Assembly: GCA_036339465.1 (NCBI GenBank)
Contig: JAYZAY010000021.1
Location: forward strand, 7,612-71,611
Length of the DNA: 64,000 nt
Source: Myxococcota bacterium
Lineage (GTDB): Bacteria; Myxococcota; XYA12-FULL-58-9; JABJBS01
Direction of reading: 5' to 3'
Below the pieces are notes generated by a model. It did no database searches, was not told the DNA's origin, and saw only the letters and a list, made by a program, of their open reading frames with translations. Positions 5,981-28,722 of this stretch are shown in pieces. Position 1 is the first letter of the stretch. Each line of letters starts with the position of its first letter. The position numbers were made by a program, and so were the translations under genes.

Positions 5981-7426
5981 TTGCCAAAGATTTCACCACC
6001 TCTCTCGAACCAAGTTTCGAATGAGCAAGAGTCAGAGGTTCGTCGCCAATATGAAGACTATCCCTTCCCCAGGGTCGTGCCCGATGACGAAAAACGTCGG
6101 TTGGTCGTAACGCCTCAGGATACACTCTCAAAGATCTCTCATTTTTGCTTTGAAGGAAAAGCCAACTTCAATGACAATTTTAGAGTCCTAGTCGCTGGTG
6201 GTGGCACAGGACACGCATTGATTTTCCTCGCCGAGCAACTAAGCGCAACATCCGCCGAAATCGTCTACCTGGATCTGAGCGCACAATCGATGCAAATTGC
6301 ACAAGAGAGGGCCAAGATCCGCAAATTAAGAAACATTCAATGGCACCGCGGTTCTATTCTACAAGCACCCGACTTAAACCTTGGACAATTCGACTACATT
6401 AATTGTACCGGTGTACTTCACCATCTCCCAGACCCCACTGCTGGTTTACAAGCCCTTAAAAATTGCCTCAAACCCAGCGGTGCCATGGGGCTCATGGTTT
6501 ATGGAAAGTATGGTCGAACTGGCATTTATCAAATTCAAGAACTCATGCGGCTAGTTAACAGTGGCCTTACCGACAATTCGAGCAAAGTCGAAAATACCAT
6601 AAATATTCTAAAGGATCTTCCAGTCTCCCACTGGCAGCTTAGAGGAAAAGACAAAGAACAATTCCTCGACTCTCATCTCCAAGACCACCATGACATCTTT
6701 GACCTCTTTCTCCACAGCAAAGATCAAGCCTACAGTGTGCCTGAAGTTTACGACTATATTGAAACATGTGGCCTCAAAGTAAACGCCTTCACCCATTTTC
6801 ACCCAGATCCAACCGAATTACTCAAATACGAACCAAGAACCTTCATTAAGGATAAGCCCCTCTTAGAAAGAATACGTTCGTTTCCTAAGCGCAATCAGAT
6901 GGCTGTGGCCGAATTACTTAGTGCCGATATCTCCTTACACACCTTCTATGTATCCTTCCGCCACACAGCCACAGCCTGCATCAATAACCTCGACAACATT
7001 CCTTATTTGATTCATGCAACAAGTGACTCTTCCCCAGTCTTCTCCACTGAAAGCTTTGACGATTTATCGAAGAGCGTGGCTCAAAACCCCAATAAACCCT
7101 TGATCATTCGAAACCCAATCGCTCCAAGTATACTCGTACCTTACACGAAATATCTGGCTTCGATTCTACAACACCTCGGTGGTGAAAATACCATCGAAGA
7201 AATAATTCAAATGGTACAACGCGAATTTGATGCCCAAAACCGAGAGGCCCACCACCCAACAGACATTCATCGAGAAATTAAACAGCTCTATCACGCTCTC
7301 CATTCAATTGGCTGGATGTTTCTACGGCACCGAAGTATGCCAGGACCTCCTTGTTTGAGGAAGTTGAACAAGATCAAAACCTCTTCCTTTGGCCACACCC
7401 CTCTCAATTCTCAGGAAATCGTATGA
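5981..7426 (+). CDS. Class I SAM-dependent methyltransferase (481 aa).
   Basis: Motif I, VLVAGGGTGHALIFLAEQL, is followed by an acidic motif (VYLDLS), INCTGVLHHL and LKPSGAMG. This is the classic Rossmann MTase order. The gene ends in ATGA, overlapping the next gene's start. Confidence 0.7.
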   Translation: MPKISPPLSNQVSNEQESEVRRQYEDYPFPRVVPDDEKRRLVVTPQDTLSKISHFCFEGKANFNDNFRVLVAGGGTGHALIFLAEQLSATSAEIVYLDLSAQSMQIAQERAKIRKLRNIQWHRGSILQAPDLNLGQFDYINCTGVLHHLPDPTAGLQALKNCLKPSGAMGLMVYGKYGRTGIYQIQELMRLVNSGLTDNSSKVENTINILKDLPVSHWQLRGKDKEQFLDSHLQDHHDIFDLFLHSKDQAYSVPEVYDYIETCGLKVNAFTHFHPDPTELLKYEPRTFIKDKPLLERIRSFPKRNQMAVAELLSADISLHTFYVSFRHTATACINNLDNIPYLIHATSDSSPVFSTESFDDLSKSVAQNPNKPLIIRNPIAPSILVPYTKYLASILQHLGGENTIEEIIQMVQREFDAQNREAHHPTDIHREIKQLYHALHSIGWMFLRHRSMPGPPCLRKLNKIKTSSFGHTPLNSQEIV

Positions 7427-8337
7427 ATCTCAAAGACATATTCAAAGAGGTTAAACCGTATCAAACAAAAAAAGATTGGCCCTCACTTTACGAGTATACC
7501 TCGAATCTAAAAAGCGCCGACCTAGCAGGAAACGACATCACCATTTCATTCGCCCATTATTTTCGTTCTCTTGCGGCCTACAATCTAGGACAACTAGATG
7601 AATCATGGTCCGAAATAAAATTATCCATTCAAGCCATGCCCATCAATCGATATAGCCAGAGACTCCGTGACCGAATCCAAAATGACTACGTAGCGAAGGA
7701 TCCACCCAAGTTGTTTGGAATCGTTTACAGTTGCCAAAAATACCTAGACAGAGCAAAAATTGTTCACGAGAAAATTCGCTCAAGCATTACCTCCAAAATC
7801 ATTGTCGGTAATCCAGATCAACAAGAATTATTCGTAGAAGATGGTGATATTACCTACCTCAAAGTATCCGATAATTACGAATCACTTCCGCTGAAAACGA
7901 CTGCAGCATTGGAATATGCATTCTTGCGCTATCCACAGTCAGCTTGTATCAAAATAGATGACGATCTAGACATCCAAAACCCTGATCAATTATTTAACAG
8001 CGTACAACAAAGCATCGAGAGCAAAAAACATTATTTTGGCCACCTCATGGGAGAAGATCTGCACTGTAAATCGTGGCATTTCGGTAAATGTGAAACCCTG
8101 AAATTTAACCGACAGCTCTATGGTCGCCCCTATCTCGGACAATGGTGCAATGGCCCATTCTATACACTTTCACGCGAAGCCATTGAAGCCTTCAATTACT
8201 TCAACACCAGGTACCCATCCTATATATCAGGGGAGCTCTTCGAGGATAAGTATGTGGGCGACGTCTTGCGTAATCAAGGCATCATGCCCACCCACATAAG
8301 TTTTTCTCAACACATCGAATCAAACCAACATGTCTAA
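7423..8337 (+). CDS. Putative glycosyltransferase, GT31/Fringe-like with a DxD motif.
   Basis: The start is inferred at the ATG of the ATGA overlap (MNLKDIF...), not at the ORF-track start of 7351. The segment YLKVSDNYESLPLKTTAALEYAFLRYPQSACIKIDDDLDI resembles the conserved core of galactosyltransferase/Fringe-type enzymes. This is a family-level guess only. Confidence 0.4.
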   Translation: MNLKDIFKEVKPYQTKKDWPSLYEYTSNLKSADLAGNDITISFAHYFRSLAAYNLGQLDESWSEIKLSIQAMPINRYSQRLRDRIQNDYVAKDPPKLFGIVYSCQKYLDRAKIVHEKIRSSITSKIIVGNPDQQELFVEDGDITYLKVSDNYESLPLKTTAALEYAFLRYPQSACIKIDDDLDIQNPDQLFNSVQQSIESKKHYFGHLMGEDLHCKSWHFGKCETLKFNRQLYGRPYLGQWCNGPFYTLSREAIEAFNYFNTRYPSYISGELFEDKYVGDVLRNQGIMPTHISFSQHIESNQHV

Positions 8338-8372
8338 TATCACAAATTGAAACTTATTGCCGGAGAAATGAA

Positions 8373-9320
8373 ATGAATAACAGTCTGCTGAAAGTTCCAT
8401 TGGTCACGGTGCTACCAACCGACCGAATCGAAATAGGTATTCCTTCCCGAGGTCGAAATCTGAATCTCGTTTCTCTGCTTCAAGCTCTCCGGACCCAAAC
8501 GTTTCAAAACTGGGATTTAACAATCGTCGATGATAATCCCGATGATTCGATGAAAAACTGCTTCTCATTGCATACCACTATCAAATTGCTCGAAATAGAA
8601 GGCCATCGAGTAAGAGTTCTGGAAGGACCCCACACCGGACTCATTTTCGCTCAAAATATCTTACTTACAGCCTGTCGCAAGAAAGTGATGGCACGATTGG
8701 ATGACGATATAATTCCTCAACCAGACTTCATCGAGAAGTTAATGCATCATTTTTATCACGATACCGACCAACGCTTAATTGCCGTTGGCGGTTCAATTCC
8801 CCAAATCGCAACCAACCAAGCAAAAGACTACCAACTGCCACCACAATCCGAACTCCTAGGCTACGCTCCATTTGAATACCCTGAGTTCAGATACGTTCAC
8901 CCAACCGGAGCCCAACCAAAACGTGTAAATTCCTTATATTCAAGTTTCTGCTATAAAACGGAAGTATTCAAATATGCGGGTGGTTTCTCCCACAGTTACT
9001 CCCCCATCGCCGAGAAAGAGGATACCGACATTTGTTTACGTTCGGCTTCTCTTGGCGGGCGACTCATCTTCGAACCCAGGGCTTTAGCATGGCATCTCAA
9101 GGCACCTATGGGTGGTATTCGGAATGTCACAACCGAACAACGTCAAGTATTCTTTCATGAAGATACCTTGAATTTTCGCAAACGTGCCAACCAGATCAGA
9201 CTTAGAGTCTTTGATTATGCCCTAGAGCGAAAAACCAACCTTGAAAATTACGTCAATTGGTTGGGGCTTGAAGACCATCAAAGTGGCTACATTCCCCCCC
9301 CCATTTCATCCGCTGCCTAA
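8373..9320 (+). CDS. Family 2 glycosyltransferase.
   Basis: The N-terminal GT-A signature is IEIGIPSRGRNLNLVSLLQALRTQTFQNWDLTIVDDNPDD, with a later ARLDDD motif. A C9 homopolymer at 9294-9302 lies in the last codons (IPPPI). Confidence 0.7.
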   Translation: MNNSLLKVPLVTVLPTDRIEIGIPSRGRNLNLVSLLQALRTQTFQNWDLTIVDDNPDDSMKNCFSLHTTIKLLEIEGHRVRVLEGPHTGLIFAQNILLTACRKKVMARLDDDIIPQPDFIEKLMHHFYHDTDQRLIAVGGSIPQIATNQAKDYQLPPQSELLGYAPFEYPEFRYVHPTGAQPKRVNSLYSSFCYKTEVFKYAGGFSHSYSPIAEKEDTDICLRSASLGGRLIFEPRALAWHLKAPMGGIRNVTTEQRQVFFHEDTLNFRKRANQIRLRVFDYALERKTNLENYVNWLGLEDHQSGYIPPPISSAA

Positions 9321-9465
9321 TTCTAACCCCGTCTTCAAATACCCAAGCATCGCATGTGCCCTTCAAATACGAGCCCATCAATGTTCTAAGCTTCCCTAGA
9401 CCGTATATCGACATCATCCGATAAATCCTCTAGGTTGGCACTCATTCACAAGCAGAGAGACACCT

Positions 9466-10203
9466 ATGACGATTCTCATCACCCTCCTCACCTTCAGCTA
9501 CCTCACAACTCCTTCGAATCCTCATCCAGACGACGTTCTCAAGAATCTTAACTCAAAAGATGCAATAATCAGAAGCAAAGCCGCATCCATCTATGCAAAA
9601 AATTGTCGCTCCGGGCGCTCGCGCCACCTCTTCCGGAGACACCGAGCCATGAATGCTGCCTTCGCCAAAACCCTCGGGGATCCGGATTCTACGGTTCGGC
9701 TCAATGGCATTGAAATGTCTGTTTGCCTTCAACCGAACAAAGCAATCGAAAAATTAAACCCCAAAGTCAGTGACCACGCGGCACAAGTGAGCCTCGCGGC
9801 AATGACTCGGCTCGCCCACTTAGAAAACCCCCTCGGAAGCGCGGCCGTCATCCTATGGCTTACAAAACACCAAACCCCCTGCCTGAATGGGCAATCTGAC
9901 CTTCTAGAAAGGTGTATTTTTGCGGCCTATACCCTTGGCCAAACTTCGCAACACGAACCCCCAGGCGCCGCCACACGATTAAAGGTAAGCCAAACTCTCA
10001 GAAGATTCATAGCAGCTCCATCCGCGAAATTAAGAGAAGTAAGTGTGGTTGCACTTTCTCTCGCTGGGCACCGAAACGACACCGAATCCATTTTAAGATT
10101 AATCGCTCAAGAAAAAGCAGGCGTCTTCAAAAACCAAAACTCACCAGCGACGATTTCCCAGTTTGAGTCCATTGCTCGACAATTGAAACAATCGAAGGAG
10201 TAG
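9466..10203 (+). CDS. Hypothetical protein (245 aa), possibly an alpha-helical repeat protein.
   Basis: The ORF is clean and runs convergent to the PglX genes. No family was recognised. Confidence 0.4.
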   Translation: MTILITLLTFSYLTTPSNPHPDDVLKNLNSKDAIIRSKAASIYAKNCRSGRSRHLFRRHRAMNAAFAKTLGDPDSTVRLNGIEMSVCLQPNKAIEKLNPKVSDHAAQVSLAAMTRLAHLENPLGSAAVILWLTKHQTPCLNGQSDLLERCIFAAYTLGQTSQHEPPGAATRLKVSQTLRRFIAAPSAKLREVSVVALSLAGHRNDTESILRLIAQEKAGVFKNQNSPATISQFESIARQLKQSKE

Positions 10204-10279
10204 ATTTCCAAACCACCTCTAAACCTCAGCCACGAGACGAGAAAGCCTCCGTTATGGGCACGAACACCATCCTCCTGCA

Positions 10280-13200
10280 TCAAGCCTCACCCAACACTTT
10301 AGAACTGGCGCTCAACAGAGAGCTGAAGCAACGATAATTTTCTATCACGCCCCGATCTAAATCAAAATCACTCATCTTCCATTCATGGGCTTCTAGTTCT
10401 TCACTCATTTTTCGAAGTTCATCTATTTTTTCGTGAACTCCATTTTTCTTAGGCAAACGCTTAGGGGTTTTCTCCAAGTCAGCGTAAAGGGCTAGAATTA
10501 AGGGCTCCACATATCTTTCCCGAATCACCGACAAGGTCTTTGGATTGATCCCGTGCACATAAACCAAACATTCAAAGGACCGCAATTTCCCCGAACTTAC
10601 CTTCCAATAAATCGGTCGTCTCTTATACTTCTGGAGATGGTCCTTATAAAATCCATTCTCCTGAGTGAAATAGCGTTGTATCGTTCTCTGGGGAGATTCT
10701 CCTCCTCTTGGTCCCAGAATTCCTGCAATGAAACTCAAGCACGAAAGGGTGTTCGTATGGCCCCATACAAGGGAGATAAAACCTTCGAGTCTGGACGCGG
10801 CCTCATCTGGAAATTGGCCCTGGCTAAGAGGGATAATCCCATCTTGAACCGAATATCCTAAATCATTACCAGCAAGGTGATCTGGCCCAACACCATCACC
10901 CACAATCATTAACCCTGGTCGCTTCAACGAGTAGCGCCCCATGAAACAACCAATAGCATACGAAATGAAATCTTTAATTGCATCCTGCAGAAATAGCGCC
11001 TTATACTCTTTTTTCTGAAGCCCACGACCATAGCGATAAACCGGATTCATCATGAGCGTAATTTCAGCGAGGGAGACCTCCGTGCCCACTTCACCCTTCA
11101 AACCATAATGCTCCACTAAAGCACAATTATTGGCTATTTCTAAAACACGCAAACGTTCGGTTGTTTCCAAATTATATTGATATTGATGGTGTAATGAAGA
11201 TTCGATGTCTACACCCGCGACTCCATCAACGCCCCGAGGCAACCACGGTAATGTCTCGAAATCCCAGCTTAGCTCCGAGCTGTTCCAGTCCTCTCGAGCA
11301 ATGGCAACCATACTCTTCAAGCGTTCATGACCATCCACATGCAGCCTGCCAACCGGTAGCTTCGAAATCGCACCCTGCTCGAAATTAAGAGTCTGAGAAA
11401 ACACCTGAATACATTCCTGAGCAACACTTGAATTTAGATACCCCAAAAGCCCAAGCAACTGTGACTCATCCTCGTGGAGAATAAACATTCCTGCCTCGCT
11501 AGGAATAGAACCTTCATCGCAAATCCGTACGGCAAAATAGCTCGAAGAAATCTTCGTCCAAGTCAGACCTTGCTTGAAATACACACGCTCGTTTTGTGGG
11601 CGAGATTTTCGACGACCAGAATCATCACGATAACTCTTAACCCGACACCCATTGTCCTCCCAATCCACAACAAAAAGGTGATTTCCGTACCATTTGCGAT
11701 AATCACCTCCCTTTAAATACGGAAACCATCGCGCCGTTTTAGGCCCTGGCTTTCTCCCTGGCCTGTAAATTTTTCGAGAATCCACCTCAAACCAATATCG
11801 GACAAACTTTGGAGTATCTCCCGTTATAAGACCCTGCTTAACTTCAAAGCCATCACTCAAATGTTTTCGCGTTTCGAAAAGAGACTGTAGACCTTTGCCC
11901 AAAAAATACCCGAGACTTTTTTGCGGAAAGCTATTGAAGAAGGATGATTTCCTCCGGAATAGCCAGCCACAATTGGGATTCACAATCGCCTCAAGGGTTC
12001 TCGGGCCTTGTTGATCCACACCTTTAAATCCAGAAAGCCGGACATAGCCTGCTTGATAATGGCTGTCGTGCTTATTTTGGAATGTAAAACAACAAATAGG
12101 GACAGTCGCCCCGGCAAAAGCCGAATACTCCAATTGCACCACACTTGTAATTGTGGCGGAATCTAGGAGCTGATACCGCAATGCCGCATAGGACCCAATA
12201 AACATCCAAACAAAGGGTGTCATAAAACCCAAATGGCCTTCTTCTTTTACAAGCTTTCGACAACGAACAATAAAGGCAGAAAAAAGATCTGCCTGGTAAC
12301 CGGAAAAATATTCCGTTAAGTACCGACGCACGACATCCGGTTGGTGTTTGCGTCCCATAAACGGGGGGTTGGCAATGATAACATCGTGCTCACGACACAG
12401 AACCTGAGCAACCTCGAGAAGAGTCAGAAGCTTCGGGTTTGCTCGCCCAAAAAAGGCCAATTTCCCTTTCTCACATGATTCCCGTAGTTCGGGCAAACAC
12501 CGCTGTAATTTCTGCGGAACTTCAATAAGAGAGCCCAATAATGGCGCGGCCTCAAACACCGCTGCAAGCTCTCCCAACAAAACACCCTCTCGCCCTAGTG
12601 GTGCAAGCATCGACTCTACCACGAGAGTCGATGTATCGGGATAGGCCCACAAACTCAGGCTAGGCTGCCGCTCAAGGATCCCTGGATCATCGAGGTTGGC
12701 ACGCAACAAAAGAACCGTCTCGGCCAATCTAATTGCACGCTCATCGATATCGAGACCGACTAAATTGTTTTCAAGTATGAGGGACGCTGCCTCGATCAAA
12801 TCATAGCCTGCTTTTAAGTAAGCCTCCCTCATCACCTCATAAGCATCCAACAACAAATGGCCTGTGCCGGCAGCGGGGTCCAAAATTGTCATTTCGGTAA
12901 GGTCAAGCTGTCCACACCCAAAGGTATCTGAAGGTGACGGTAAAAGATAATTAAGCCTAAGGCCATCTCTACTAGACGCGACTCTCGTTTTGAGATATCT
13001 CCCCAGGCTATTGTGCACCAGGTATCTCGAGACCCACTTGGGAGTAAAAAGTTGGGTAACCACAGCCAATTCACGCGCACTCGAAACCCTGCCCGAGACT
13101 TGTTTTTTGTCATAATCAACAAAGCCTTGAAAGCACCAACCCAAAATCTCACAATTTCTCCAGAGTTCCTCCGGAAGACCAAAACAAAAGTGGTTAGCCA

Positions 13201-13549
13201 CCTCTAAATTCATCAGACTTTCGACCGTGGACTCTGACTCAAGCTCCTCTAAATGCCGAAACAACGCCGGAAAAACCTGGGAAACCCAACGAAGAGATTT
13301 GCGCAAAGAACTCAAGCACGATTTTGGTGACTCCAAACAAGCATTTTGAAGTCCGGCAATTCTGGCGGGCAATAAGGCATTCACTTCCATGAACCGAAGC
13401 ACACATAGAAAGAGAAAACAATCACATGATAGTTCTCTCCAAAAGCACATTTCCTGGGACCGGCTGAACTGGTTTCCTATAGAGAGACCCGAGCACGAAA
13501 GTAGTTCTCTCCCCTTCTTACTAAAAAGAATAATGCGCGCATGCTCCAT
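10280..13549 (-). CDS. pglX: BREX PglX-like N6-adenine DNA methyltransferase, paralog 1.
   Basis: The motifs are ILGWCFQGF, FTPKWVSRYLVHNSLGRY, DPAAGTGHLLLDAYEV (motif I), IIANPPFMGRK (motif IV, NPPF) and the C-terminal RRPIYWKVSSGKLRSFECLVYVHG. The ORF track starts at 13603. The start given here, Met19 (MEHARII...), is chosen by alignment to paralog 2 and overlaps its stop by a few nucleotides. Confidence 0.75.
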   Translation of the reverse strand: MEHARIILFSKKGRELLSCSGLSIGNQFSRSQEMCFWRELSCDCFLFLCVLRFMEVNALLPARIAGLQNACLESPKSCLSSLRKSLRWVSQVFPALFRHLEELESESTVESLMNLEVANHFCFGLPEELWRNCEILGWCFQGFVDYDKKQVSGRVSSARELAVVTQLFTPKWVSRYLVHNSLGRYLKTRVASSRDGLRLNYLLPSPSDTFGCGQLDLTEMTILDPAAGTGHLLLDAYEVMREAYLKAGYDLIEAASLILENNLVGLDIDERAIRLAETVLLLRANLDDPGILERQPSLSLWAYPDTSTLVVESMLAPLGREGVLLGELAAVFEAAPLLGSLIEVPQKLQRCLPELRESCEKGKLAFFGRANPKLLTLLEVAQVLCREHDVIIANPPFMGRKHQPDVVRRYLTEYFSGYQADLFSAFIVRCRKLVKEEGHLGFMTPFVWMFIGSYAALRYQLLDSATITSVVQLEYSAFAGATVPICCFTFQNKHDSHYQAGYVRLSGFKGVDQQGPRTLEAIVNPNCGWLFRRKSSFFNSFPQKSLGYFLGKGLQSLFETRKHLSDGFEVKQGLITGDTPKFVRYWFEVDSRKIYRPGRKPGPKTARWFPYLKGGDYRKWYGNHLFVVDWEDNGCRVKSYRDDSGRRKSRPQNERVYFKQGLTWTKISSSYFAVRICDEGSIPSEAGMFILHEDESQLLGLLGYLNSSVAQECIQVFSQTLNFEQGAISKLPVGRLHVDGHERLKSMVAIAREDWNSSELSWDFETLPWLPRGVDGVAGVDIESSLHHQYQYNLETTERLRVLEIANNCALVEHYGLKGEVGTEVSLAEITLMMNPVYRYGRGLQKKEYKALFLQDAIKDFISYAIGCFMGRYSLKRPGLMIVGDGVGPDHLAGNDLGYSVQDGIIPLSQGQFPDEAASRLEGFISLVWGHTNTLSCLSFIAGILGPRGGESPQRTIQRYFTQENGFYKDHLQKYKRRPIYWKVSSGKLRSFECLVYVHGINPKTLSVIRERYVEPLILALYADLEKTPKRLPKKNGVHEKIDELRKMSEELEAHEWKMSDFDLDRGVIENYRCFSSLLSASSKVLGEA

Positions 13550-13556
13550 CGGCAGT

Positions 13557-16500
13557 TCACCGCTTCCCCAAAACAATTTTTCGATCAGACGCCAAGGTGC
13601 CAAAGAAATCGTAATTTTTCTTCACCCCGTCACCTAGATCCAGTTGAAATGCATCTTCGGACAAAACTTTAAGACTTTGCTCGAACTCTCGAAGTTCATT
13701 CAGGCGTCCATGGAGTTTTGTCTTTTCGGCCGGAAACTTCGGATCCGGAATCGATGAAGCCGCCTTTGCATATTCTTGTTCAAGGGTGGAGATATAAGGG
13801 ATTACGTAGGATTGTCGTATCATATCCAAGGTTTCAGAATGGAATCGATGAAGGTAAATAAGGCACTCAAACGTTCTATACTTCCCGGAACTTATTTTCC
13901 AATAAATCGGTCGTCGTTTGTATTGAATCAAGTGGTCTCGGTAATACCCGCCAGGCCGGGTTAAATAGGATTGGACCTTTTCCAAGGCATTCTTGCCTCC
14001 TTTAAGCCCGAGACACTTAGCGACAAAATCAATATTTTCCTCCAAGGATTCCGGGGGCCACACTTCCTTGAGAAATCGCTCAAATCTCTTGGCCGCCTCA
14101 TCGGGAAAAACACCCCAAGTAAGTGGGAGGACCCCATGGAGTGCTGTACCAAATTGGCCATAAAGACTGGGGTTGAAATTGTCATTACGATGACCCGCAT
14201 AAACCAACCCCGGCTGCTCCAACGAATATCGCCCGAGAGTGCAACCGATCATATAGGAGATGAGTTCCTTCATGCTTTCCGCTCTGAAACGTTTTTCATA
14301 TTCATCATCGGAAAGATTTGGAGCAAATCGATATCGCGGGTTGGTCTTCAAACTCACATCTTCGAGACCAACATCTATCTTGATTTGGTTCTCTATACCA
14401 AACAAAACCGCGACGTTCGCATTATTCTGCCGTTCCAATTCCTGGAGTTTCTCCGATTGTTTCTTAACATAGCTACGCCAAACACTAAAGCTCTCTGATA
14501 GAGATATCCGCGGTTGATTATGGTCCGCCAGGAAAGGAAGCCTCTGAAAATCCCAACTGGATTCGAAAGAAGCCCAATCCTCACGAGAAATCCGAATACA
14601 CTCGTCAACGACTTCTGAACCTACCTCTTTCGGGCATGGAAGATTTGCCAAAGTTCCCGCTTCAAAATTCAAGGTGGGTGAAATCGCTCCTAGAACGACC
14701 TGGCAGAGCTTTGAGTTAAGTAATCCCAAAAGCGGTTTCATTTTCCCATTGGAGATTGGAAAGAGAGAAATACCCGCATCTGCGAAAATAAATCCCTCTG
14801 GGAAATAACGTGCTGAAAATTCTCCAGAACTAATTTTTGACCAACTCAAGCTGGGTTTGAAATAGTAAGACTGATTCTTTACCACATAGCTTGGTGATGT
14901 CAGATATGGGTATTTAGCTAGAACCGTTTTTTTAATTTGGTCTCCATCGCTCTCCCAATCCACAATGTATTCTTGATGCCCATACCACTTACGATAACGC
15001 CCACCCTTATTGAGTGGAAACCACCTTTGGCGGCTGTCTTTCGCGCTTTGCGCATCTTTACAATGAAAAGCGATATCGTCTATTGAAACCTCGTGCCAAT
15101 AACGCAGGAAGCGTTCATTATCGGAAGTCGCTAAGCCTTGTTTGACATCGCCAAACTGTGAGAGTCGCCCCGGATGCGAGAAAATGTGTTGTAAAACCCC
15201 CTTCGTCCAAAATGCAATGGGTTGCCCCGGGATCTGCTTCAAGTCATCGGGCTTCATCAAATAAAACCATTCGCATTTGGGGACATGGATCGCTTCTAGG
15301 ACTTTAGGGGCTTGGTTTTCGGCGCCTCGAAAATCCGACAGTTTTATAAACGCTCCGGTAAAATTCGGTATGTATCGATTCTGGAAAGTAAACGCGCAAA
15401 TCGGGACGGTGGCATCAGAGAAACCGGAGTATTCCAATTGTACCAGAGTCATAAGAGTCGCTGTTTCTAAAAGATTGAGACGCAGAGGGGTATAAGAACC
15501 TATAAACATCCAAACAAAGGGAGTCATAAAACCAAGAACCCCATCACACTTAGCAAAATCTCGACTCCGAACAATAAAGGAAGAGAAGAGGTCAGTACGA
15601 TAATCGTAGTAATTGGAATATAGAAAATCCTTTAATATCTTTGGTTGGTTTTTTTTCCCAAGGTATGGGGGATTAGCGATAACAACGTCGTATTTCTTTA
15701 GGAGAAGGCGCGCGACATCAACGAGCCTTAGAATGGCGCGTCTGAAGGTCGGTATTTGTTCGGTAGATTCATTGCGGCACCATTTTTCAATCTCCACTAG
15801 TTTATTAGCCACGTTGTCCGGTATCTTAAGTAGCGAGCCAAAAATCGATGCCGAATGAAAAATGTGGCATAATTCAGTCACCGCTTCAGGAAGCGCCTTA
15901 ATCTCGGTGAAACCCCGTGGACTATCAGGAATACAGTAAACCTTTGGGGAAATCCCCTTTTCCATGAAAGTCGCGTCGTCAGATCGGGCTTTCATAATGA
16001 GAGCAAAGTTTGCAACTTGTACCGCTCGTGGCTCGATATCCACGCCAAACAAATGGTTTTCAAGTATACGTTTTGGAATCGTGCTGGCCGCGTGTCCGAG
16101 GGAGAGATAAATATTCCTTAAGGTATCGTAGGCTTCGAGTAGTAGGTGTCCTGTGCCCGCTGCGGGGTCCAAATCCGTTGGCACACCGCGCTTCGTTTCC
16201 GCGCTATTGCGGGTGAGCATTGTCGTATCAATATGATACTTGAAATTATCCGTGAGGGCTGAATCCGATTCACCGTCCATCCAGCGGGTAACAATGCTAT
16301 TATGACATAAGTATTGAGCAATCCATTTTGGTGTAAAAAGTTGGGTTGAAACGGCAAGTTCATGGACCTCAAAGGCCCGACCCGTGGACCTCCGTTTCTC
16401 GGGAGCAACATAGAATTGATACAACCATCCGAGGATTTCCGTTTCAGAACAAGACTCTGCCGTTAGGGTCGAACTTAAATCGGTTAAGAAAGAGTGTTCC

Positions 16501-16829
16501 GCGGCGATTCGGTCTAAGACGCTTAGGAGATGAGAAGTGGGTTCTGGAAAAACTGAGGGTATCATCCGTTGATATTTTCGATATAGAAATGAGAGAGAAG
16601 CGCTGGAAGACGCCAGTTTATGTGTGGATGTGACGCCCTCAGAAGAATCGAGATAGCTTTGGACTTCCATGTAGCGAAGAGCGCACAAAAAGCCAAAAAC
16701 CTTATAGGCGATATCTCTGACTAATTCGCGGTCGGTTGCAGCCCCTAGGGATACCAGAACATCGGTTGTAAGTTCCTCTAAGAACTTTCGAGTGCGTAAC
16801 GCAAAGTTTGTCAGTTGCTGCTTAGTCAC
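13557..16829 (-). CDS. pglX: BREX PglX-like N6-adenine DNA methyltransferase, paralog 2.
   Basis: The motifs are ILGWLYQFYV, FTPKWIAQYLCHNSIV, DPAAGTGHLLLEAYDT, VIANPPYLGKK (NPPY) and the C-terminal KRRPIYWKISSGKYRTFECLIYLHR. It is collinear with paralog 1 across the MTase, TRD-like and C-terminal regions, at roughly 45-50% identity by eye. Confidence 0.78.
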   Translation of the reverse strand: MTKQQLTNFALRTRKFLEELTTDVLVSLGAATDRELVRDIAYKVFGFLCALRYMEVQSYLDSSEGVTSTHKLASSSASLSFLYRKYQRMIPSVFPEPTSHLLSVLDRIAAEHSFLTDLSSTLTAESCSETEILGWLYQFYVAPEKRRSTGRAFEVHELAVSTQLFTPKWIAQYLCHNSIVTRWMDGESDSALTDNFKYHIDTTMLTRNSAETKRGVPTDLDPAAGTGHLLLEAYDTLRNIYLSLGHAASTIPKRILENHLFGVDIEPRAVQVANFALIMKARSDDATFMEKGISPKVYCIPDSPRGFTEIKALPEAVTELCHIFHSASIFGSLLKIPDNVANKLVEIEKWCRNESTEQIPTFRRAILRLVDVARLLLKKYDVVIANPPYLGKKNQPKILKDFLYSNYYDYRTDLFSSFIVRSRDFAKCDGVLGFMTPFVWMFIGSYTPLRLNLLETATLMTLVQLEYSGFSDATVPICAFTFQNRYIPNFTGAFIKLSDFRGAENQAPKVLEAIHVPKCEWFYLMKPDDLKQIPGQPIAFWTKGVLQHIFSHPGRLSQFGDVKQGLATSDNERFLRYWHEVSIDDIAFHCKDAQSAKDSRQRWFPLNKGGRYRKWYGHQEYIVDWESDGDQIKKTVLAKYPYLTSPSYVVKNQSYYFKPSLSWSKISSGEFSARYFPEGFIFADAGISLFPISNGKMKPLLGLLNSKLCQVVLGAISPTLNFEAGTLANLPCPKEVGSEVVDECIRISREDWASFESSWDFQRLPFLADHNQPRISLSESFSVWRSYVKKQSEKLQELERQNNANVAVLFGIENQIKIDVGLEDVSLKTNPRYRFAPNLSDDEYEKRFRAESMKELISYMIGCTLGRYSLEQPGLVYAGHRNDNFNPSLYGQFGTALHGVLPLTWGVFPDEAAKRFERFLKEVWPPESLEENIDFVAKCLGLKGGKNALEKVQSYLTRPGGYYRDHLIQYKRRPIYWKISSGKYRTFECLIYLHRFHSETLDMIRQSYVIPYISTLEQEYAKAASSIPDPKFPAEKTKLHGRLNELREFEQSLKVLSEDAFQLDLGDGVKKNYDFFGTLASDRKIVLGKR

Positions 16830-16887: not shown

Positions 16888-18333
16888 TTAGGATTGAAGG
16901 GTGATTTCGCCCGCGAGGTATTTTTCTTTGAACAACTCCTCGCCCATGGCGGCGACCCTCTTCAACAACGCCTCTTCCAAAAAGGCCGAAACAAATGCTT
17001 TGTTGGGTCGCCCTGCCCTTCCGAGGGAGTGTTTGGCCTGCTCCTTGGCTTCCGCTTCTAGGTTTTTATAATCTCGGTGGGTCAACTCGTCTTCCGCCTT
17101 GGAGATCATCGTGGTCCTATATTCCTGCCATAAGGTCTCAAGGTCTAGAAGTTCGGTCTCTTGTTTTTTCGGATGTCGGGACCGGTTGACGGCACTTCGT
17201 GCCCCATTTTCAAATCCCTTAAGATAAAAGAAACTCTGTATCTCATCTTCGGATTTGAATTTCCTCGCCTGTTCAATTGCATGGTTCAGCATTTCAAGGG
17301 CACTGGGTTCACCGTGTTTGTCAATCCATGCCAAGGCGAGGTCGTGTTCCTTTCGAGTAATCGTGATTCCTTCTGAAGAGCCATGAAGCAGTTCATAAAA
17401 CTTCTCCACCAGGGTATCGGCTGGATCGATTATTTTTGTTCTTGCTTGTTTGGGTACACGTTCGAAAATATACCGAAAATCGTCACGGGATTTATCGACA
17501 GTAAGACTTATCTTTAAGCCGCGAGCTTGTAATCGAATCATGGAAGCCTCCACCTGATCGGTGACATAGCTTGAAGCGGTCCGACCGCCTCGGATAATTT
17601 TTTCGCTGTCCATGGCCAATTTGTATTTAGCGAATCGGCGACAGCTTTTGACTGTTTCCTTGCGTTTGCGAGCCAATTGTCGATCGAGCCAACGAAAGAG
17701 TCTTATGTCGATGGGTCTTTCCAAGCTGAGAAGAAATTTCATATCAAGTCGTTTGGTATAATTCTCCTTAATGGATTGATAAAATAATTCACCCCAGCGA
17801 ATCTCATACACTTTCTTGCGACGGCGACCGCCCCGCTTCTGCGCTTGGATAACCTCATTTTCGATAAAACTGGTTTGGTCGGGTTCTTCTTCATCGTCAT
17901 CGCGTTCCGTGAGATCGACAATGTAATCAATAATGGAGAAATTCGCAGGTCGGTGTGTTTTCAGGGAAGGAACCCACCATTTGTCGTGAATGATTCTGGT
18001 TGCTGCAATGCGTTCCAACTCGCAGGTTGCGCGTTTCAGCTCTTTGCCTGCACGCCGGCTTTTAGAGTGGGGATACATATAATCATCCACAAGTTCTCGA
18101 ATCGCAAATTGAAACTTTGGTGACTGAAATGAGTTTTGTTTATTGTGCATCCAAAGAAGGGCTAGAAGAGTTCGCTCTGCATATGCCGATGGGAGCCCGC
18201 TACCTGAACCGGCTTCTAAGCGATAGCTCTTGTCTTCGGATAAATAGATGATATTGGATTGTCGATTTGGCTTTTTACCACGACCGGGGCGATTGTCTGT
18301 AAGTCGACAAAAGGGAATTTCAACAAGGTTCAT
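16888..18333 (-). CDS. repA: Plasmid-type replication initiator protein (RepA-like), 481 aa.
   Basis: The N-terminus, NLVEIPFCRLTDNRP...IIYL...YRLEA...GLPSAYAERTLLALLWM, resembles the RPA/RepA initiator N-terminal winged-helix region. The protein is basic and Arg/Lys-rich. Iterons and an AT-rich region lie directly upstream, and a parAG operon is next to it. Confidence 0.6.
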   Translation of the reverse strand: MNLVEIPFCRLTDNRPGRGKKPNRQSNIIYLSEDKSYRLEAGSGSGLPSAYAERTLLALLWMHNKQNSFQSPKFQFAIRELVDDYMYPHSKSRRAGKELKRATCELERIAATRIIHDKWWVPSLKTHRPANFSIIDYIVDLTERDDDEEEPDQTSFIENEVIQAQKRGGRRRKKVYEIRWGELFYQSIKENYTKRLDMKFLLSLERPIDIRLFRWLDRQLARKRKETVKSCRRFAKYKLAMDSEKIIRGGRTASSYVTDQVEASMIRLQARGLKISLTVDKSRDDFRYIFERVPKQARTKIIDPADTLVEKFYELLHGSSEGITITRKEHDLALAWIDKHGEPSALEMLNHAIEQARKFKSEDEIQSFFYLKGFENGARSAVNRSRHPKKQETELLDLETLWQEYRTTMISKAEDELTHRDYKNLEAEAKEQAKHSLGRAGRPNKAFVSAFLEEALLKRVAAMGEELFKEKYLAGEITLQS

Positions 18334-18534: not shown

Positions 18535-18600
18535 TATTCTTATTTATATATTTAAGAGCTAAAAAGAGAACTAAAATCAAATATTTAGAAAGGAATTTTG
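18535..18600. promoter_or_regulatory. AT-rich tract between repA and the iterons, a candidate DNA-unwinding element and rep promoter region.
   Basis: The sequence TTCTTATTTATATATTTAAGAGCTAAAAAGAGAACTAAAATCAAATATTTAGAAAGG is more than 75% AT. It is immediately followed by the iteron array. Confidence 0.5.
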
Positions 18601-18601
18601 C

Positions 18602-18876
18602 TTTAATGGTTCTCGCTATTTCCTTTAATGGTTCTCGCCTTTTGTTATAAGAGTTCTTGCTTTTCTTTAATGGTTCTCGAGTTTTCTTTAACGGTTCTCA
18701 AGTGCGCAGGAGGTGGACGGTACTTTGGTCGGTTTCTCTAAGTCATTGAGAATACAGGTGTTGTGTTTCGTTGGACGGGTGTCAAGAGAAGTTTTAGTCA
18801 TTAATGGTTCTCGCTTTTGCTTTAAGCATTCTCGAAGTTTCTTTAATGGTTCTCGAAGTTTCTTTAATGGTTCTCG
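18602..18876 (+). repeat. Iteron array. Eight direct copies of a 14-mer, TTTAATGGTTCTCG, sit on a 21-22 bp phase in two clusters of four. This is a candidate oriV / RepA-binding region.
   Basis: Perfect copies lie at 18602, 18624, 18666, 18842 and 18863. Variants lie at 18687 (TTTAACGGTTCTCA), 18800 (ATTAATGGTTCTCG) and 18821 (TTTAAGCATTCTCG). The spacings are 22, 42, 21, 21, 21 and 21 bp. All copies share one orientation. Confidence 0.75.
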
Positions 18877-19078
18877 GATTTTCGGTGGGGAGTTGTTCGC
18901 GTCGGACTCTCCGAATGGTTGGGGTAAGTCATGGATATAGCTTTAGAAAACACAGGGTTTTAGAAGGAACCGGTGGGTGTAATGGGCCGGTCCGCATGGC
19001 TTGGGTGTTTTCCTTGAGAACCCTTATAGAAAAAGGATCTCTAGGCGATCGTTCTCGGAGGCTAGCGATGGATGGGAG

Positions 19079-19429
19079 TTACCGGGTGGGTTCGAGACGA
19101 AGTGCGTGTTCCTTGAATTCCTCTTCGTCGAGACTCTTAAGGGCGTGGATCGCGAGTCGGAAGAGATCGTTGTTTGATAGGCGTAGCCTTAGATCGAAGG
19201 TTGTATCAATAATCTCTTCAAAGAGTACCTGCTCTTTGTGTGGCAGGGCTATATTGTGTCGGGTTTTTGGGCCCTTGGATGGACGTCCTGGCTTTTTCGG
19301 TGTGGTCGATGTGGGTTGTTCCACTACTTGAAGAGCTTTAGAGGCGGATTCTAGCGGGGTGTCTGGGGATTGAATCCTTTGACTGGGTGTTTTTACTTGG
19401 AGGTCTTTTAGGTTAAGTTTACGCGACAT
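19079..19429 (-). CDS. parG: Small partition protein (ParG/ParB-like, putative ribbon-helix-helix centromere-binding protein).
   Basis: The 116-aa ORF lies immediately downstream of parA and overlaps it by 11 bp. The N-terminal half is basic and Pro/Ser/Thr-rich and the C-terminal half is helical. This matches the size and position of type Ib ParG proteins. Confidence 0.5.
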   Translation of the reverse strand: MSRKLNLKDLQVKTPSQRIQSPDTPLESASKALQVVEQPTSTTPKKPGRPSKGPKTRHNIALPHKEQVLFEEIIDTTFDLRLRLSNNDLFRLAIHALKSLDEEEFKEHALRLEPTR

Positions 19430-20240
19430 GTTTCACCTCGTTGGTTTCTTGTTCGTGTATGAATAGTGCGGTTATTTCTTCGGCTGCGTCCCGATAGGCT
19501 GCGCACACTGGCCGGGATGGTTCAATATCGAAAAGGGTCGCCCCCAAAAGGGCCGATTGGTTGATGCGTTCGTCTCTACCTATTCTTGCATCTAGTAAAG
19601 TGAGCCCCATGCCTAGGATGGCTTCTTTGATAGCAGCATTGGTTTTTTTGGTTCGCCCGTCATATTTGGTTTGTAAGCCAACGATGGCGGTGGGGGCTTC
19701 GGTAAATTCGTTAAGTTCCTGAATGGTGCCGTAGAGATCCTGCCATCCTTGAAGAGCCCCATTTTCCGCCGGCATTGGAGCGATGACGAGATCACTCGCA
19801 TAGATTGCGGCTTCGGTATAGGCGCCAATATGCGGTGGGGTATCGATCACGACAAAGTCCCAATGCTCTTGGGCTTTGCGGATTGCGCCGTCTAGGAAAT
19901 AAAGGCGTTGTCCTTGGAGGTAGAGCTCGCGTTCTTTGCGCGCCATCCCGATATGTCCGGGAGCGACTTGTAGATTGTTACGGTTGGTTGGTTGCACAAT
20001 ATCTGGAAGTGAAAATTGTGCTTTGGGCGTTAAGACCTCGGCAATGGAAGCCAGTTTTGCTTGTTCTTCGCTGACTCCCAAAATGGAGGTTGCGTTGCCC
20101 TGGGGATCGAGATCGATCAACAGGGTTTGGTGTCCGGTTTCTGCAAGGGCCGCGGCTAGGTGGCAGGCGGTGGCTGTCTTCCCTACTCCGCCTTTTATTT
20201 GAGAGATACAAATGGTTTTTGGTTTCATTGTTTCCTCCAC
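19419..20240 (-). CDS. parA: ParA-family partition ATPase.
   Basis: The deviant Walker A is KGGVGKTATACHLAAALA. Further motifs are LLIDLDPQGNAT, a Walker B (VVIDTPPH), and the typical ParA/Soj length of 273 aa. Confidence 0.85.
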   Translation of the reverse strand: MEETMKPKTICISQIKGGVGKTATACHLAAALAETGHQTLLIDLDPQGNATSILGVSEEQAKLASIAEVLTPKAQFSLPDIVQPTNRNNLQVAPGHIGMARKERELYLQGQRLYFLDGAIRKAQEHWDFVVIDTPPHIGAYTEAAIYASDLVIAPMPAENGALQGWQDLYGTIQELNEFTEAPTAIVGLQTKYDGRTKKTNAAIKEAILGMGLTLLDARIGRDERINQSALLGATLFDIEPSRPVCAAYRDAAEEITALFIHEQETNEVKHVA

Positions 20241-28415: not shown

Positions 28416-28722
28416 TATTCTTCGCGCGCAGGAAACGCTGATTTAGGAATAAAGCCGACAAAACTGGCACACCCGAATTTTCCTCAATTACCACACCTGG
28501 CCCCATCTGACACCCAGCCCCTATAAATGAGTTTGCCCCGACCTTGATTGTCTTTAAGTAAAGTATACGCATTTCTCCCTTTTTGCGAACCACATGGGGA
28601 GAAAGATAAACCTCATTGCCAAAAAACACATTGTCGCCAATATCGATATGACCGCGGTCGGTGACCTTTACCAAGGTCGCCCAAAAAACCTTATCTCCTA
28701 CTTGGCTGCCCCACGCCCTCAA
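28378..28722 (-). CDS. Possible hexapeptide-repeat (left-handed beta-helix) acyltransferase fragment.
   Basis: Repetitive [LIV]-G-x-x-x-x-like spacing is seen in IDIGDNVFFGNEVYLS...IKVGANSFIGAGCQMGPGVVIEENSGV. The ORF is short (114 aa) and could be a remnant. Confidence 0.3.
   Translation of the reverse strand: MRAWGSQVGDKVFWATLVKVTDRGHIDIGDNVFFGNEVYLSPHVVRKKGEMRILYLKTIKVGANSFIGAGCQMGPGVVIEENSGVPVLSALFLNQRFLRAKNNVSIKVTTSGRS

What the first reader, a model, noticed from the sequence alone, without database searches (positions are those of the whole stretch)
10280..16829. Two tandem, full-length PglX-like methyltransferase paralogs with no other BREX components, co-oriented directly behind a plasmid repA
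Both ORFs carry the PglX-specific motifs (I)LGW(L/C)(Y/F)Q(F/G)(Y/F), TPKW(I/V)..YL.HNS, DPAAGTGHLL, NPP(Y/F) and the C-terminal (K/R)RRPIYWK.SSGK.R.FECL.Y.H. They are clearly paralogous over their whole length, at roughly 45-50% identity by eye. In characterised BREX type 1 loci, pglX sits between brxA/B/C and pglZ/brxL. Here the upstream neighbour, 58 bp away, is a RepA-like initiator, and the downstream neighbour is a convergent unrelated gene. Nothing in the 64 kb window resembles BrxC (a ~1200-aa ATPase), PglZ or BrxL. The pair therefore looks like one of several things. It could be a stripped-down, possibly novel two-methyltransferase module. It could be plasmid-borne orphan MTases serving an anti-restriction or host-range role. 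It could also be a Type IIL-like system whose partner has not been recognised. The divergence between the two TRD-like regions suggests two different target specificities.
Basis: partly seen in the sequence, partly recalled or inferred. Interest (0 to 1): 0.7.

Follow-up and report, generated by a model that had tools for sequence, protein, structure and literature searches.

The report
Tandem solitary PglX-type DNA methyltransferases
Two anciently duplicated DNA adenine methyltransferase genes of the BREX "PglX" family sit alone, without any BREX partner gene, directly behind a plasmid-type replication gene. Both carry the same trimmed N-terminal domain that I found only in other partner-less relatives, so they are probably stand-alone methylases and not a phage-defence system.

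Summary
Two co-oriented, intact ORFs (13557-16829 and 10280-13549, minus strand, 1090 and 1089 aa, 7 nt apart) both pass NCBI's BREX-1 PglX model (923 and 786 bits, cutoff 500). Their predicted folds match solved PglX/BrxX structures end to end.

Two corrections:
- They are 37-38% identical, not 45-50%.
- The divergence is uniform and is not concentrated in the TRD.

No BrxA, BrxB, BrxC, PglZ or BrxL is present in the 64 kb, by Pfam and by custom HMMs on all six frames. The upstream gene is an iteron-type RepA, with two arrays of 21-nt iterons and a parA beside it. There is no nuclease domain, so the genes are not MmeI-like.

New finding: both copies lack about 80 residues of the N-terminal domain and the otherwise conserved AY(S/T)WFNR motif. 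In 139 informative PglX loci, this reduced form never had BREX neighbours (0 of 8), against 122 of 125 for the canonical form.

Best reading: BREX-independent orphan m6A methyltransferases from an old tandem duplication, probably with different specificities. A trans-acting BREX elsewhere in this MAG cannot be excluded. This is a new variant of a known kind, of moderate interest.

The parts
13557..16829 (-). pglX-like gene, upstream copy (1090 aa, GTG start): gamma-class N6-adenine DNA methyltransferase with a reduced NTD, then MTD, TRD and CTD
   Evidence: NF033452 scores 923 bits against a cutoff of 500. PADLOC PglX scores 936 bits. Motif I is DPAAGTGH and motif IV is NPPY. The AF2 model has pLDDT 85 and Foldseek TMq 0.91 to Salmonella PglX 8c45. 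It keeps 99 of 112 columns that are at least 95% conserved in the other, mostly BREX-embedded, PglX.
10280..13549 (-). pglX-like gene, downstream copy (1089 aa from the ATG at 13549; the ORF runs up to the TTG at 13603), the faster-evolving paralog
   Evidence: NF033452 scores 786 bits. It is 37% identical to the upstream copy over the full length, with the alignment starting at Met19 of the ORF. Motif IV is NPPF, where 85 of 85 relatives have NPPY. It is 100% identical to NCBI MEE2959755.1, which is annotated from a later Met as 1036 aa. The AF2 model has pLDDT 76 and TMq 0.75-0.76 to PglX/BrxX structures.
16888..18333 (-). repA-like replication initiator gene (481 aa), 58 bp upstream of the first pglX copy and co-oriented with it
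   Evidence: The protein itself has no Pfam hit, even at E<=5. It has full-length homologs at 29-37% identity, and 9 of the 22 non-self homologs carry PF10134 (Replication initiator protein A). tblastn gives 24% identity to annotated 'replication initiator protein A' genes of planctomycete plasmids.
18598..18896 (.). Two arrays of about five 21-nt iterons each (consensus TTTCTTTAATGGTTCTCG...), at 18598-18699 and 18796-18896: the presumed replication origin and RepA binding sites
   Evidence: the repeat finder family D1 has 8 registered copies at 21-nt spacing. Tandem Repeats Finder reports period 21-22 with 4.9 and 4.0 copies. An inverted copy lies at 19013-19033.
19419..20240 (-). parA-type partition ATPase gene (273 aa), same strand as repA and the pglX pair
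   Evidence: Pfam AAA_31 at 7e-43, plus CbiA, MipZ and ParA.

Best explanation
The two genes encode solitary, BREX-independent members of the PglX/BrxX family of SAM-dependent N6-adenine DNA methyltransferases.

Origin. They arose by an old tandem duplication inside a lineage that had already trimmed its N-terminal domain.

Location. They lie immediately downstream of an iteron-type repA on a plasmid-like replicon in a metagenome-assembled genome labelled Myxococcota, and are probably co-transcribed with repA.

Inferred mechanism. Each protein is a single polypeptide that finds its own short asymmetric DNA site with its TRD, flips the target adenine into the NPPY/NPPF pocket, and methylates it. 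There is no restriction or exclusion arm. The result would be one or two extra m6A marks on the replicon and host DNA. Such marks would serve as protective or epigenetic marks, for example masking sites from restriction-type systems, and not as a self/non-self signal for BREX.

Shown: family membership, intact catalytic motifs, four-domain fold, absence of BREX genes in 64 kb, the reduced NTD and its association with BREX-less context, and the RepA/iteron/ParA module.

Inferred: catalytic activity without partners, different specificities, co-transcription with repA, and the biological role.
For: 1. Family and fold. HMM scores are above the curated cutoff. Both copies match 8c45, 8q56 and 9ewz over their whole length.

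2. Catalytic residues. The equivalents of E. coli T243, L245, N508, P509, P510, Y511 and F592 are kept, with F at the Y511 position in the downstream copy.

3. No partners. No BrxA, BrxB, BrxC, PglZ or BrxL by Pfam or by custom HMMs in six frames. No helicase, DUF499 or DUF1998 partner, and no defence-family hit in the unannotated neighbours.

4. Reduced NTD. Both copies lack E. coli BrxX residues ~30-73 (the beta-sheet segment) and ~115-147, and they lack the AY(S/T)WFNR motif.

5. Association with context. The same reduction occurs in solitary genes of Thermoguttaceae, Planctomycetia, Marinisporobacter, Clostridiaceae and others. Across the loci I fetched, reduced-NTD genes had BREX neighbours in 0 of 8 informative loci, against 122 of 125 for the canonical NTD (Fisher p about 1e-10; about 2e-7 when counting five lineages).

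6. Literature. BrxX alone is inactive and needs BrxB, BrxC and BrxZ, and its NTD is proposed to be the interface with BREX partners (PMC11842806, PMC12839542 section 17). S. coelicolor PglX, which lacks the BrxX-type NTD and CTD, is active alone in vitro (PMC11842806 discussion).

7. Long-term constraint. Both ORFs remain intact after divergence to 37% identity, and they keep 99 and 95 of 112 family-conserved columns.

8. Duplication. The two copies are sisters in 94-98% of NJ bootstraps.

9. Not a recent import. GC and GC3 of both genes lie within 1 sd of the window's genes.
Against: Every PglX/BrxX of this four-domain type tested so far is inactive without BrxB, BrxC and PglZ. Both copies keep the complete CTD, which is the other domain suspected of auto-inhibition.

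Only 64 of 78.9 kb of the contig is visible, and none of the rest of the MAG, so BREX genes could act in trans.

The link between a reduced NTD and BREX-less context is a correlation. It comes from a motif-biased sample with few independent lineages.

No methylome or expression data exist. The downstream copy evolves faster, has NPPF and gave a lower-confidence model, so it could be losing function.
Confidence: 0.55

Rival explanations
1. Split or trans-acting BREX. The pair supplies one or two specificity subunits to BrxA/B/C, PglZ and BrxL encoded elsewhere in the genome or on the unseen part of the contig. The plasmid would then add or switch BREX specificities.
For: Both proteins score as BREX-1 PglX above the curated cutoff. 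They retain the CTD and the TRD/spacer architecture of BrxX. Canonical BrxX is inactive alone (PMC11842806). The source is a MAG contig of 78,879 bp of which 15 kb is unseen. Multiple pglX copies per BREX system are known.
Against: No BREX gene lies in 64 kb. In 122 of 125 informative canonical loci the partners are adjacent. Both copies have lost the NTD segments and the WFNR motif that are near-universal in BREX-embedded PglX. Every other reduced-NTD relative with readable flanks is also solitary, among housekeeping genes.
Confidence: 0.2
2. Relics. The genes are leftovers of a degraded BREX locus. They are catalytically silent on their own, either decaying or retained only as DNA-binding proteins.
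For: BrxX binds DNA but does not methylate without partners (PMC11842806). The downstream copy has the longest branch, NPPF instead of the family-invariant NPPY, and keeps the second-fewest conserved columns, 95 of 112. The window contains other pseudogenes, a split P450 and an Asn synthase fragment.
Against: Two ORFs of ~1090 codons stay open after divergence to 37% identity, with all SAM-binding and catalytic motifs kept. This implies long purifying selection on both. The same reduced-NTD architecture persists in several unrelated lineages. NPPF is a working motif IV in other N6-adenine methyltransferases (general knowledge).
Confidence: 0.12
3. A new defence or exclusion module. The two methyltransferases would work with an unrecognised partner nearby, such as the RepA-like protein, the 245-aa convergent gene, or other unannotated ORFs.
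For: Several neighbouring ORFs have no family hit: 9466-10203, 2447-4474, 4535-5272 and 18804-19331. PglX-like enzymes are reused in DISARM, ARMADA and MANTIS (PMC12458937; bioRxiv 10.64898/2026.09.23.753747).
Against: The RepA-like protein has full-length homologs carrying PF10134 and sits next to iterons and parA. No helicase, ATPase of the DUF499/BrxC type, or nuclease was found near the pair. Solitary relatives share no conserved neighbour.
Confidence: 0.08
4. MmeI-type (Type IIL/IIG) bifunctional restriction-modification enzymes with an N-terminal nuclease.
For: There are weak Pfam MmeI_Mtase hits at 1e-7 and a strong PADLOC 'REase_MTase_IIG' PDLC03600 hit. Distant structural similarity to MmeI 5hr4 is also seen.
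Against: No MmeI_N or other nuclease domain was found. Residues 1-125 are predicted to be all-helical, with no beta-sheet core. TMq to MmeI is only 0.33-0.39, against 0.75-0.91 to PglX. The PDLC03600 model matches over the same region as PglX and scores lower than the PglX model.
Confidence: 0.02

Closest known systems
BREX type 1 PglX/BrxX (E. coli HS BrxX, PDB 9ewz; Salmonella PglX, PDB 8c45/8q56)
   Same: Same family by curated HMM. Same NTD-MTD-TRD-spacer-CTD order and the same catalytic and SAM motifs. The predicted folds match over the whole length, with TMq 0.91 and 0.75.
   Different: Sequence identity is 28-33%. The window proteins lack about 80 NTD residues (E. coli 30-73 and 115-147) and the AY(S/T)WFNR motif. 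They are not flanked by brxA, brxB, brxC, pglZ or brxL.
Tandem pglX pairs inside complete BREX-1 loci (L016 Gemmataceae MAG, L069 Tissierellales MAG, metagenome loci L142/L167). Duplication and phase variation of pglX were noted by Goldfarb et al. as cited in PMC11842806, and a second methyltransferase occurs in the L. casei Zhang BREX as cited in PMC12707154.
   Same: Two full-length, co-oriented, adjacent pglX genes.
   Different: The L016 and L069 pairs are recent mosaics: 74-76% identical overall, 91-100% at both ends, and 33-55% only in the TRD. Those pairs, and L142/L167, sit between brxC and pglZ. The window pair is uniformly 22-54% identical along its length and has no BREX context.
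Solitary reduced-NTD PglX-like genes found here: L029 Thermoguttaceae MAG, L022 Planctomycetia MAG, L030/L040/L043 Marinisporobacter, L047 Clostridiaceae, P0225 (L086), P0266 (L090), P0268 (L091)
   Same: Compact proteins of about 1065-1115 aa in most of these genes. They share the position of the NTD deletion, and most have lost the WFNR motif. None has a BREX neighbour.
   Different: All are single genes, embedded among housekeeping genes or beside a serine recombinase. None is a tandem pair and none is next to a replication module. They are only 30-38% identical to the window proteins.
Orphan adenine methyltransferases such as CamA of Clostridioides difficile (PDB 7lni)
   Same: A gamma-class N6-adenine MTase core with no cognate nuclease. 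CamA chains are the next-best structural matches after PglX/BrxX.
   Different: CamA is about 580 aa and lacks the BrxX-type NTD, spacer helices and CTD. TMq is only 0.33-0.36.
Streptomyces coelicolor PglX (BREX type 2 / Pgl)
   Same: A PglX-type enzyme reported to methylate DNA on its own in vitro. It lacks the BrxX-type NTD, which gives a precedent for activity when flanking domains are missing (PMC11842806 discussion; PMC12707154).
   Different: It is part of a pglW/X/Y/Z system and lacks the CTD as well. The window proteins keep the CTD and score at E=5.7e-6 or not at all on the BREX-2 model.

Membership tests
BREX type 1 PglX/BrxX | Whole-protein score above the curated cutoff of NCBIfam NF033452 (500 bits) | tested here: met
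   923 bits (upstream) and 786 bits (downstream). The match covers profile positions ~165-1209 of 1210.
BREX type 1 PglX/BrxX | Gamma-class N6-adenine MTase motifs (motif I GxG, motif IV NPPY) and adenine-pocket residues | tested here: met
   DPAAGTGH in both copies. NPPY in the upstream copy and NPPF in the downstream copy. Equivalents of T243, L245, N508 and F592 are conserved.
BREX type 1 PglX/BrxX | Four-domain architecture (NTD, MTD, TRD plus spacer helices, CTD) as in the solved structures | tested here: met
   Foldseek TMq is 0.91 (8c45) for the upstream copy and 0.76 (9ewz) for the downstream copy, over the full length. MTD, TRD and CTD lengths fall within the canonical range.
BREX type 1 PglX/BrxX | Full-size NTD (~200-240 aa) with the near-invariant AY(S/T)WFNR helix motif | tested here: not met
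   The NTD is ~130 aa in both copies, against a canonical median of 214. The motif reads AYKVFGF in one copy and SCDCFLF in the other. E. coli residues 30-73 and ~115-147 are absent.
BREX type 1 PglX/BrxX | Encoded within a brxA-brxB-brxC-pglX-pglZ-brxL cluster (pglZ is the defining BREX gene) | tested here: not met
   None of the five is present in the 64 kb, by Pfam or by custom six-frame HMMs. The rest of the contig and genome is not visible.
BREX type 1 PglX/BrxX | Methylation and defence depend on the BrxB-BrxC-PglZ complex | not testable with these tools
   This needs genetics or biochemistry.
Type IIL / MmeI-like bifunctional RM enzymes | N-terminal PD-(D/E)xK nuclease domain (~150 aa) fused to the MTase and TRD | tested here: not met
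   No MmeI_N or other nuclease family was found. Residues 1-125 are predicted to be helices only.
DISARM class 1 (DrmMI), ARMADA (ArmB), MANTIS/Gao_RL (MtsC) | PglX-like MTase adjacent to its signature partners (DrmA/DrmB/DrmD helicases and DUF1998; YprA/BrxHII helicases; DUF499 ATPase plus helicase-nuclease) | tested here: not met
   No helicase, DUF1998 or DUF499 domain occurs in any ORF of at least 150 aa. The PADLOC DrmMI score (451 and 328 bits) is far below the PglX score.
Iteron-type plasmid replication module (RepA of the PF10134 'RPA' kind) | Initiator of the RPA family, with arrays of directly repeated iterons nearby and a partition ATPase | tested here: met
   The protein itself misses Pfam, but 9 of 22 full-length homologs carry PF10134. 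Two arrays of 21-nt iterons lie 265-563 bp upstream of repA. parA is at 19419-20240.
Orphan (solitary) DNA methyltransferases | No cognate restriction or effector gene linked to the MTase; methylation activity on its own | tested here: inconclusive
   No nuclease or effector was recognised next to the pair or next to its solitary relatives. Activity cannot be tested here.

The most novel reading that the evidence does not exclude
The reduced-NTD solitary PglX proteins, including this pair, may be natural 'liberated' versions of BrxX that methylate DNA without BrxB, BrxC and PglZ. On this reading, the lost pieces (E. coli BrxX ~30-73, ~115-147 and the WFNR helix motif) mark the docking or auto-inhibitory surface that couples canonical BrxX to the BREX complex. 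The tandem pair on an iteron plasmid would then act as a two-enzyme protective methylation module. It would either mark two different sites, or mark the two strands of one asymmetric site as the paired methylases of Type IIS systems do. Either way it would keep the replicon marked through replication and transfer.
Probability: 0.2. Interest if true: 0.65.

Novelty: new variant of a known kind. Interest (0 to 1): 0.4.

Why it matters
An open question in BREX biology is why BrxX/PglX binds its site but cannot methylate without BrxB, BrxC and PglZ, and which surfaces couple it to the complex. Solitary homologs that keep the whole catalytic, TRD and CTD apparatus, but have repeatedly lost the same NTD segments and a near-invariant NTD motif, offer a comparative handle on that question.

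They point to specific residues to delete or graft in E. coli BrxX. They also provide candidate enzymes that may be active alone.

For annotation, the case shows that the NCBIfam and PADLOC 'BREX-1 PglX' labels also capture partner-less methyltransferases. A PglX hit alone should therefore not be counted as a BREX system.

The pair itself, two old paralogs behind a plasmid repA, is a modest curiosity unless methylome data show an unusual division of labour between them.

Tried and rejected
1. Source genome. Exact-product look-ups for both window proteins found nothing. Peptide scans of GTDB genomes and JGI metagenomes with the upstream copy also found nothing. Only a 3-kb ENA scaffold (L084) and a 3-kb JGI contig carrying the RepA at 99% identity (P0372) belong to the same population. 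The remaining 15 kb of the contig and the rest of the MAG could not be inspected.

2. Apparent frameshift. The upstream copy appears split on L084, but this is an artefact of a 10-N scaffold gap.

3. Conserved partner gene next to solitary relatives. The genes upstream of L029/L022 (357 aa) and L086 (369 aa, with a signal-peptide-like N-terminus) are unrelated to each other and to anything in the window.

4. MTD insert as a second orphan-specific loss. The insert (E. coli 390-500) is 79-84 aa here, at or just below the canonical 10th percentile of 81.6. The same gap occurs in the BREX-embedded L001, so it is not distinctive.

5. Shufflon or phase variation. There are no long direct or inverted repeats between the copies, no simple-sequence tract, and no recombinase nearby.

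6. Other large ORFs as hidden BrxC, PglZ or PglW. The 1075-aa, 1074-aa, 1244-aa and 838-aa ORFs are, respectively, a coiled-coil protein, a PLD/cardiolipin-synthase-like protein, a cyclase-AAA-TPR protein and an NTPase-kinase protein.

7. Promoter and terminator scans were at background level and are uninformative.

8. Plasmid database. Megablast of the region against PLSDB gave no match.

Full report
**What is there.** On the minus strand there are two adjacent long ORFs, 13557-16829 (1090 aa, GTG start) and 10280-13603. The paralog alignment starts at Met19 of the second ORF. Its likely start is therefore the ATG at 13549, 7 nt after the first gene's TGA, giving 1089 aa.

Both proteins exceed the curated cutoff of NCBIfam NF033452 (BREX-1 PglX, 500 bits) with 923 and 786 bits, and PADLOC's best model for both is PglX. 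Pfam finds only the Eco57I, N6_Mtase and MmeI_Mtase methylase domains and no nuclease domain.

AlphaFold2 models have pLDDT 85 and 76. They match the solved Salmonella PglX and E. coli BrxX structures over the whole length, with query-normalised TM of 0.91 and 0.75-0.76. CamA and MmeI are far behind at 0.33-0.39. The first ~125 residues are helices only in both models, which rules out an MmeI-like PD-(D/E)xK domain.

**Corrections to the observation.** The two proteins are 37% (BLASTP) to 38% (MAFFT) identical, not 45-50%. The divergence is uniform along the protein:

| Region | Identity |
|---|---|
| NTD | 24% |
| MTD | 39-48% |
| TRD | 39% |
| CTD | 41.5% |

So the TRDs are not specially diverged. 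Even so, the copies differ at three of the five positions that contact bases in E. coli BrxX. Those five positions (E. coli K681, D684, R751, Q784, N823) read Q,A,K,D,N in one copy and Q,I,Q,E,N in the other (residues from PMC11842806 section 9). Different specificities are therefore plausible but not shown.

**Surroundings.** The upstream gene (16888-18333, 58 bp away) has no Pfam hit of its own. It does have full-length homologs at 29-37% identity, of which 9 of 22 carry PF10134, Replication initiator protein A. It also resembles annotated RepA genes of planctomycete plasmids.

Between 265 and 563 bp upstream of its start lie two arrays of about five 21-nt iterons each (18598-18699 and 18796-18896), plus an inverted copy. 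A parA gene follows at 19419-20240. The 'plasmid repA' claim is therefore well supported as a replication and partition module.

The sequence comes from a MAG. The downstream copy is 100% identical to NCBI MEE2959755.1 ('MAG... Myxococcota bacterium'), on a contig of 78,879 bp. A 3-kb scaffold from an independent ENA assembly is about 99.7-99.8% identical outside an N-gap and spans the junction of the two genes, so the tandem arrangement is real. GC and GC3 of both genes are typical of the window.

**Absence of BREX partners.** Pfam on all ORFs of at least 150 aa found no BrxA, BrxB, BrxC, PglZ or BrxL. PADLOC found nothing relevant in the unannotated ORFs.

I built HMMs for the five partners from 60-68 BREX loci each and searched every six-frame ORF of at least 40 aa with the filters off. 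The best E-value was 0.6, while the PglX HMM recovered both copies at 1107 and 937 bits. No helicase, DUF499 or DUF1998 gene is present either, which excludes DISARM, ARMADA and MANTIS contexts.

**Relatives.** Apart from records of the same population (the NCBI protein MEE2959755.1 that is 100% identical to the downstream copy, and a 293-aa, 99%-identical fragment of the upstream copy from the ENA scaffold), nothing in 5.8 billion clustered proteins, 1.84 billion representatives, GTDB genomes or JGI metagenomes exceeds 42% identity to either copy. The best hits (P0001, P0002) sit in textbook brxA-brxB-brxC-pglX-pglZ-brxL operons.

Among about 170 fetched PglX loci:
- Tandem full-length pglX pairs do occur, but inside complete BREX loci (L016, L069, L142, L167).
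- The two pairs I compared (L016, L069) are recent mosaics: 74-76% identical overall, 91-100% at both ends, and 33-55% only in the TRD.
- The window pair is a different thing, an old duplication. The two copies are sisters in 94-98% of NJ bootstraps, and the downstream copy's most identical relative is the upstream copy.

**The distinguishing feature.** I aligned both copies with E. coli BrxX, fetched as L089. Both lack E. coli residues ~30-73. That segment forms the three-stranded sheet after the first helix, according to PMC11842806. They also lack residues ~115-147. The helix motif AY(S/T)WFNR, near-invariant in canonical PglX, reads AYKVFGF in one copy and SCDCFLF in the other.

Domain by domain, only the NTD is out of range, at ~130 aa against a canonical median of 214. 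The MTD, TRD and CTD are normal. The same reduction is seen in solitary genes of a Thermoguttaceae MAG, a Planctomycetia MAG, Marinisporobacter spp., a Clostridiaceae genome and several metagenomic proteins. Where flanks are readable, these genes sit among housekeeping genes or next to a serine recombinase.

Context was counted on loci with at least 4 kb of flank on both sides, with the window and L047 added to the reduced-NTD group:

| NTD form | Loci with BREX neighbours |
|---|---|
| Canonical | 122 of 125 |
| Reduced | 0 of 8 |

Fisher's test gives p of about 8e-11, or about 2e-7 if the reduced forms are collapsed to five lineages. The Clostridial solitary genes group with Firmicutes BREX enzymes, away from the window pair, so the reduction probably arose more than once. 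The NJ tree is not strong enough to be sure of this. The solitary genes also keep the fewest of the 112 columns that are at least 95% conserved in the other, mostly BREX-embedded PglX sequences: 95-103, against 104 or more for all other complete sequences.

**Interpretation.** The published work says the following:
- BrxX binds its site but does not methylate alone.
- BrxB, BrxC and BrxZ are required for methylation.
- The NTD and/or CTD may hold BrxX in an incompetent state or dock it to the complex.
- S. coelicolor PglX, which lacks these flanking domains, is active alone in vitro (PMC11842806; PMC12839542 section 17; PMC12707154).

Against that background, the loss of the same NTD pieces in partner-less genes fits enzymes that no longer talk to a BREX complex. 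Both window genes have stayed open, with intact SAM and catalytic motifs, across divergence to 37% identity. That fits proteins that still work.

I therefore favour BREX-independent orphan m6A methyltransferases, probably co-transcribed with repA, since the gap is 58 bp and no terminator-like site was found in it (a weak scan). Their role would be to mark the replicon and host DNA. I put this at about 0.55.

The main rival, at about 0.2, is that BREX partners lie elsewhere in this incompletely seen genome. The smaller rivals are silent relics (0.12), an unrecognised new partner (0.08) and an MmeI-type enzyme (0.02, effectively refuted).

**Novelty and interest.** PglX family membership, pglX duplication and PglX-like enzymes outside BREX are all known. 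Three things appear not to be described in the searchable literature: the reduced-NTD solitary form, its strict association with BREX-less context, and an old tandem pair of such genes attached to an iteron replicon. This is a new variant of a known kind. It is of moderate interest, mainly because it nominates specific NTD elements of BrxX for experiments on how BREX licenses methylation.

Noticed in passing
window 32643-40897 (+): Three co-oriented genes. The first is a 1075-aa coiled-coil protein with only weak SMC, Rad50 and LmuB-like hits. The second is a 389-aa protein with no hit. The third is a 1074-aa protein whose C-terminal third carries two PLD/HKD domains (PLDc_2 at 1e-34, cardiolipin-synthase-like, with weak DrmC hits). 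This could be a defence or lipid-related cluster.
   Followed up: partly
window 27079-29198 (-): A cytochrome P450 is split into two overlapping ORFs (278 and 173 aa). An isolated 159-aa asparagine-synthase fragment lies next to it. Both are probable pseudogenes, so this replicon carries decaying genes.
   Followed up: no
window 50853-58087 (-): Two large signalling-type proteins. One is a 1244-aa adenylate/guanylate cyclase with AAA_16 and TPR domains, with weak Pycsar-cyclase hits. The other is an 838-aa AAA/KAP-type NTPase fused to a Ser/Thr kinase, with PADLOC PD-T4-6-like kinase hits. A DUF5995 gene lies between them.
   Followed up: no
window 5981-9320 (+): A 481-aa class I SAM methyltransferase (Methyltransf_12, with a PADLOC mad2 hit at 5e-16) is followed by two glycosyltransferase genes. 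It lies just beyond the convergent neighbour of the pglX pair and is probably unrelated to DNA methylation.
   Followed up: no
L016 6153-13447; L069 9338-16611; L142 and L167 ~6260-13320: Complete BREX-1 loci carry two tandem full-length pglX genes. In the two pairs I aligned (L016 and L069), the N- and C-terminal parts are 91-100% identical and only the TRD region differs (33-55%). This looks like a natural specificity-doubling arrangement.
   Followed up: partly
L023, L072, L134 (PglX at ~4.7-13.5 kb of each locus): Three PglX genes have a canonical full-size NTD but no BREX gene within at least 4 kb on either side. These are exceptions to the association. They may be recent orphans or loci with distant partners.
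   Followed up: no
window 13557-16829 versus public protein records: The upstream copy has no full-length entry in the protein collections, only a 293-aa fragment from a gapped scaffold. NCBI starts the downstream copy at an internal Met, giving 1036 aa. The public annotation of this pair is therefore incomplete.
   Followed up: partly
window 16888-18333 and 10280-16829: The contig is labelled Myxococcota. However, the RepA's only PLSDB matches are planctomycete plasmids. The PglX pair also groups weakly (43% bootstrap) with solitary genes from two Planctomycetota MAGs (plus the unplaced protein P0230). The taxonomic bin of this contig may deserve a check.
   Followed up: no
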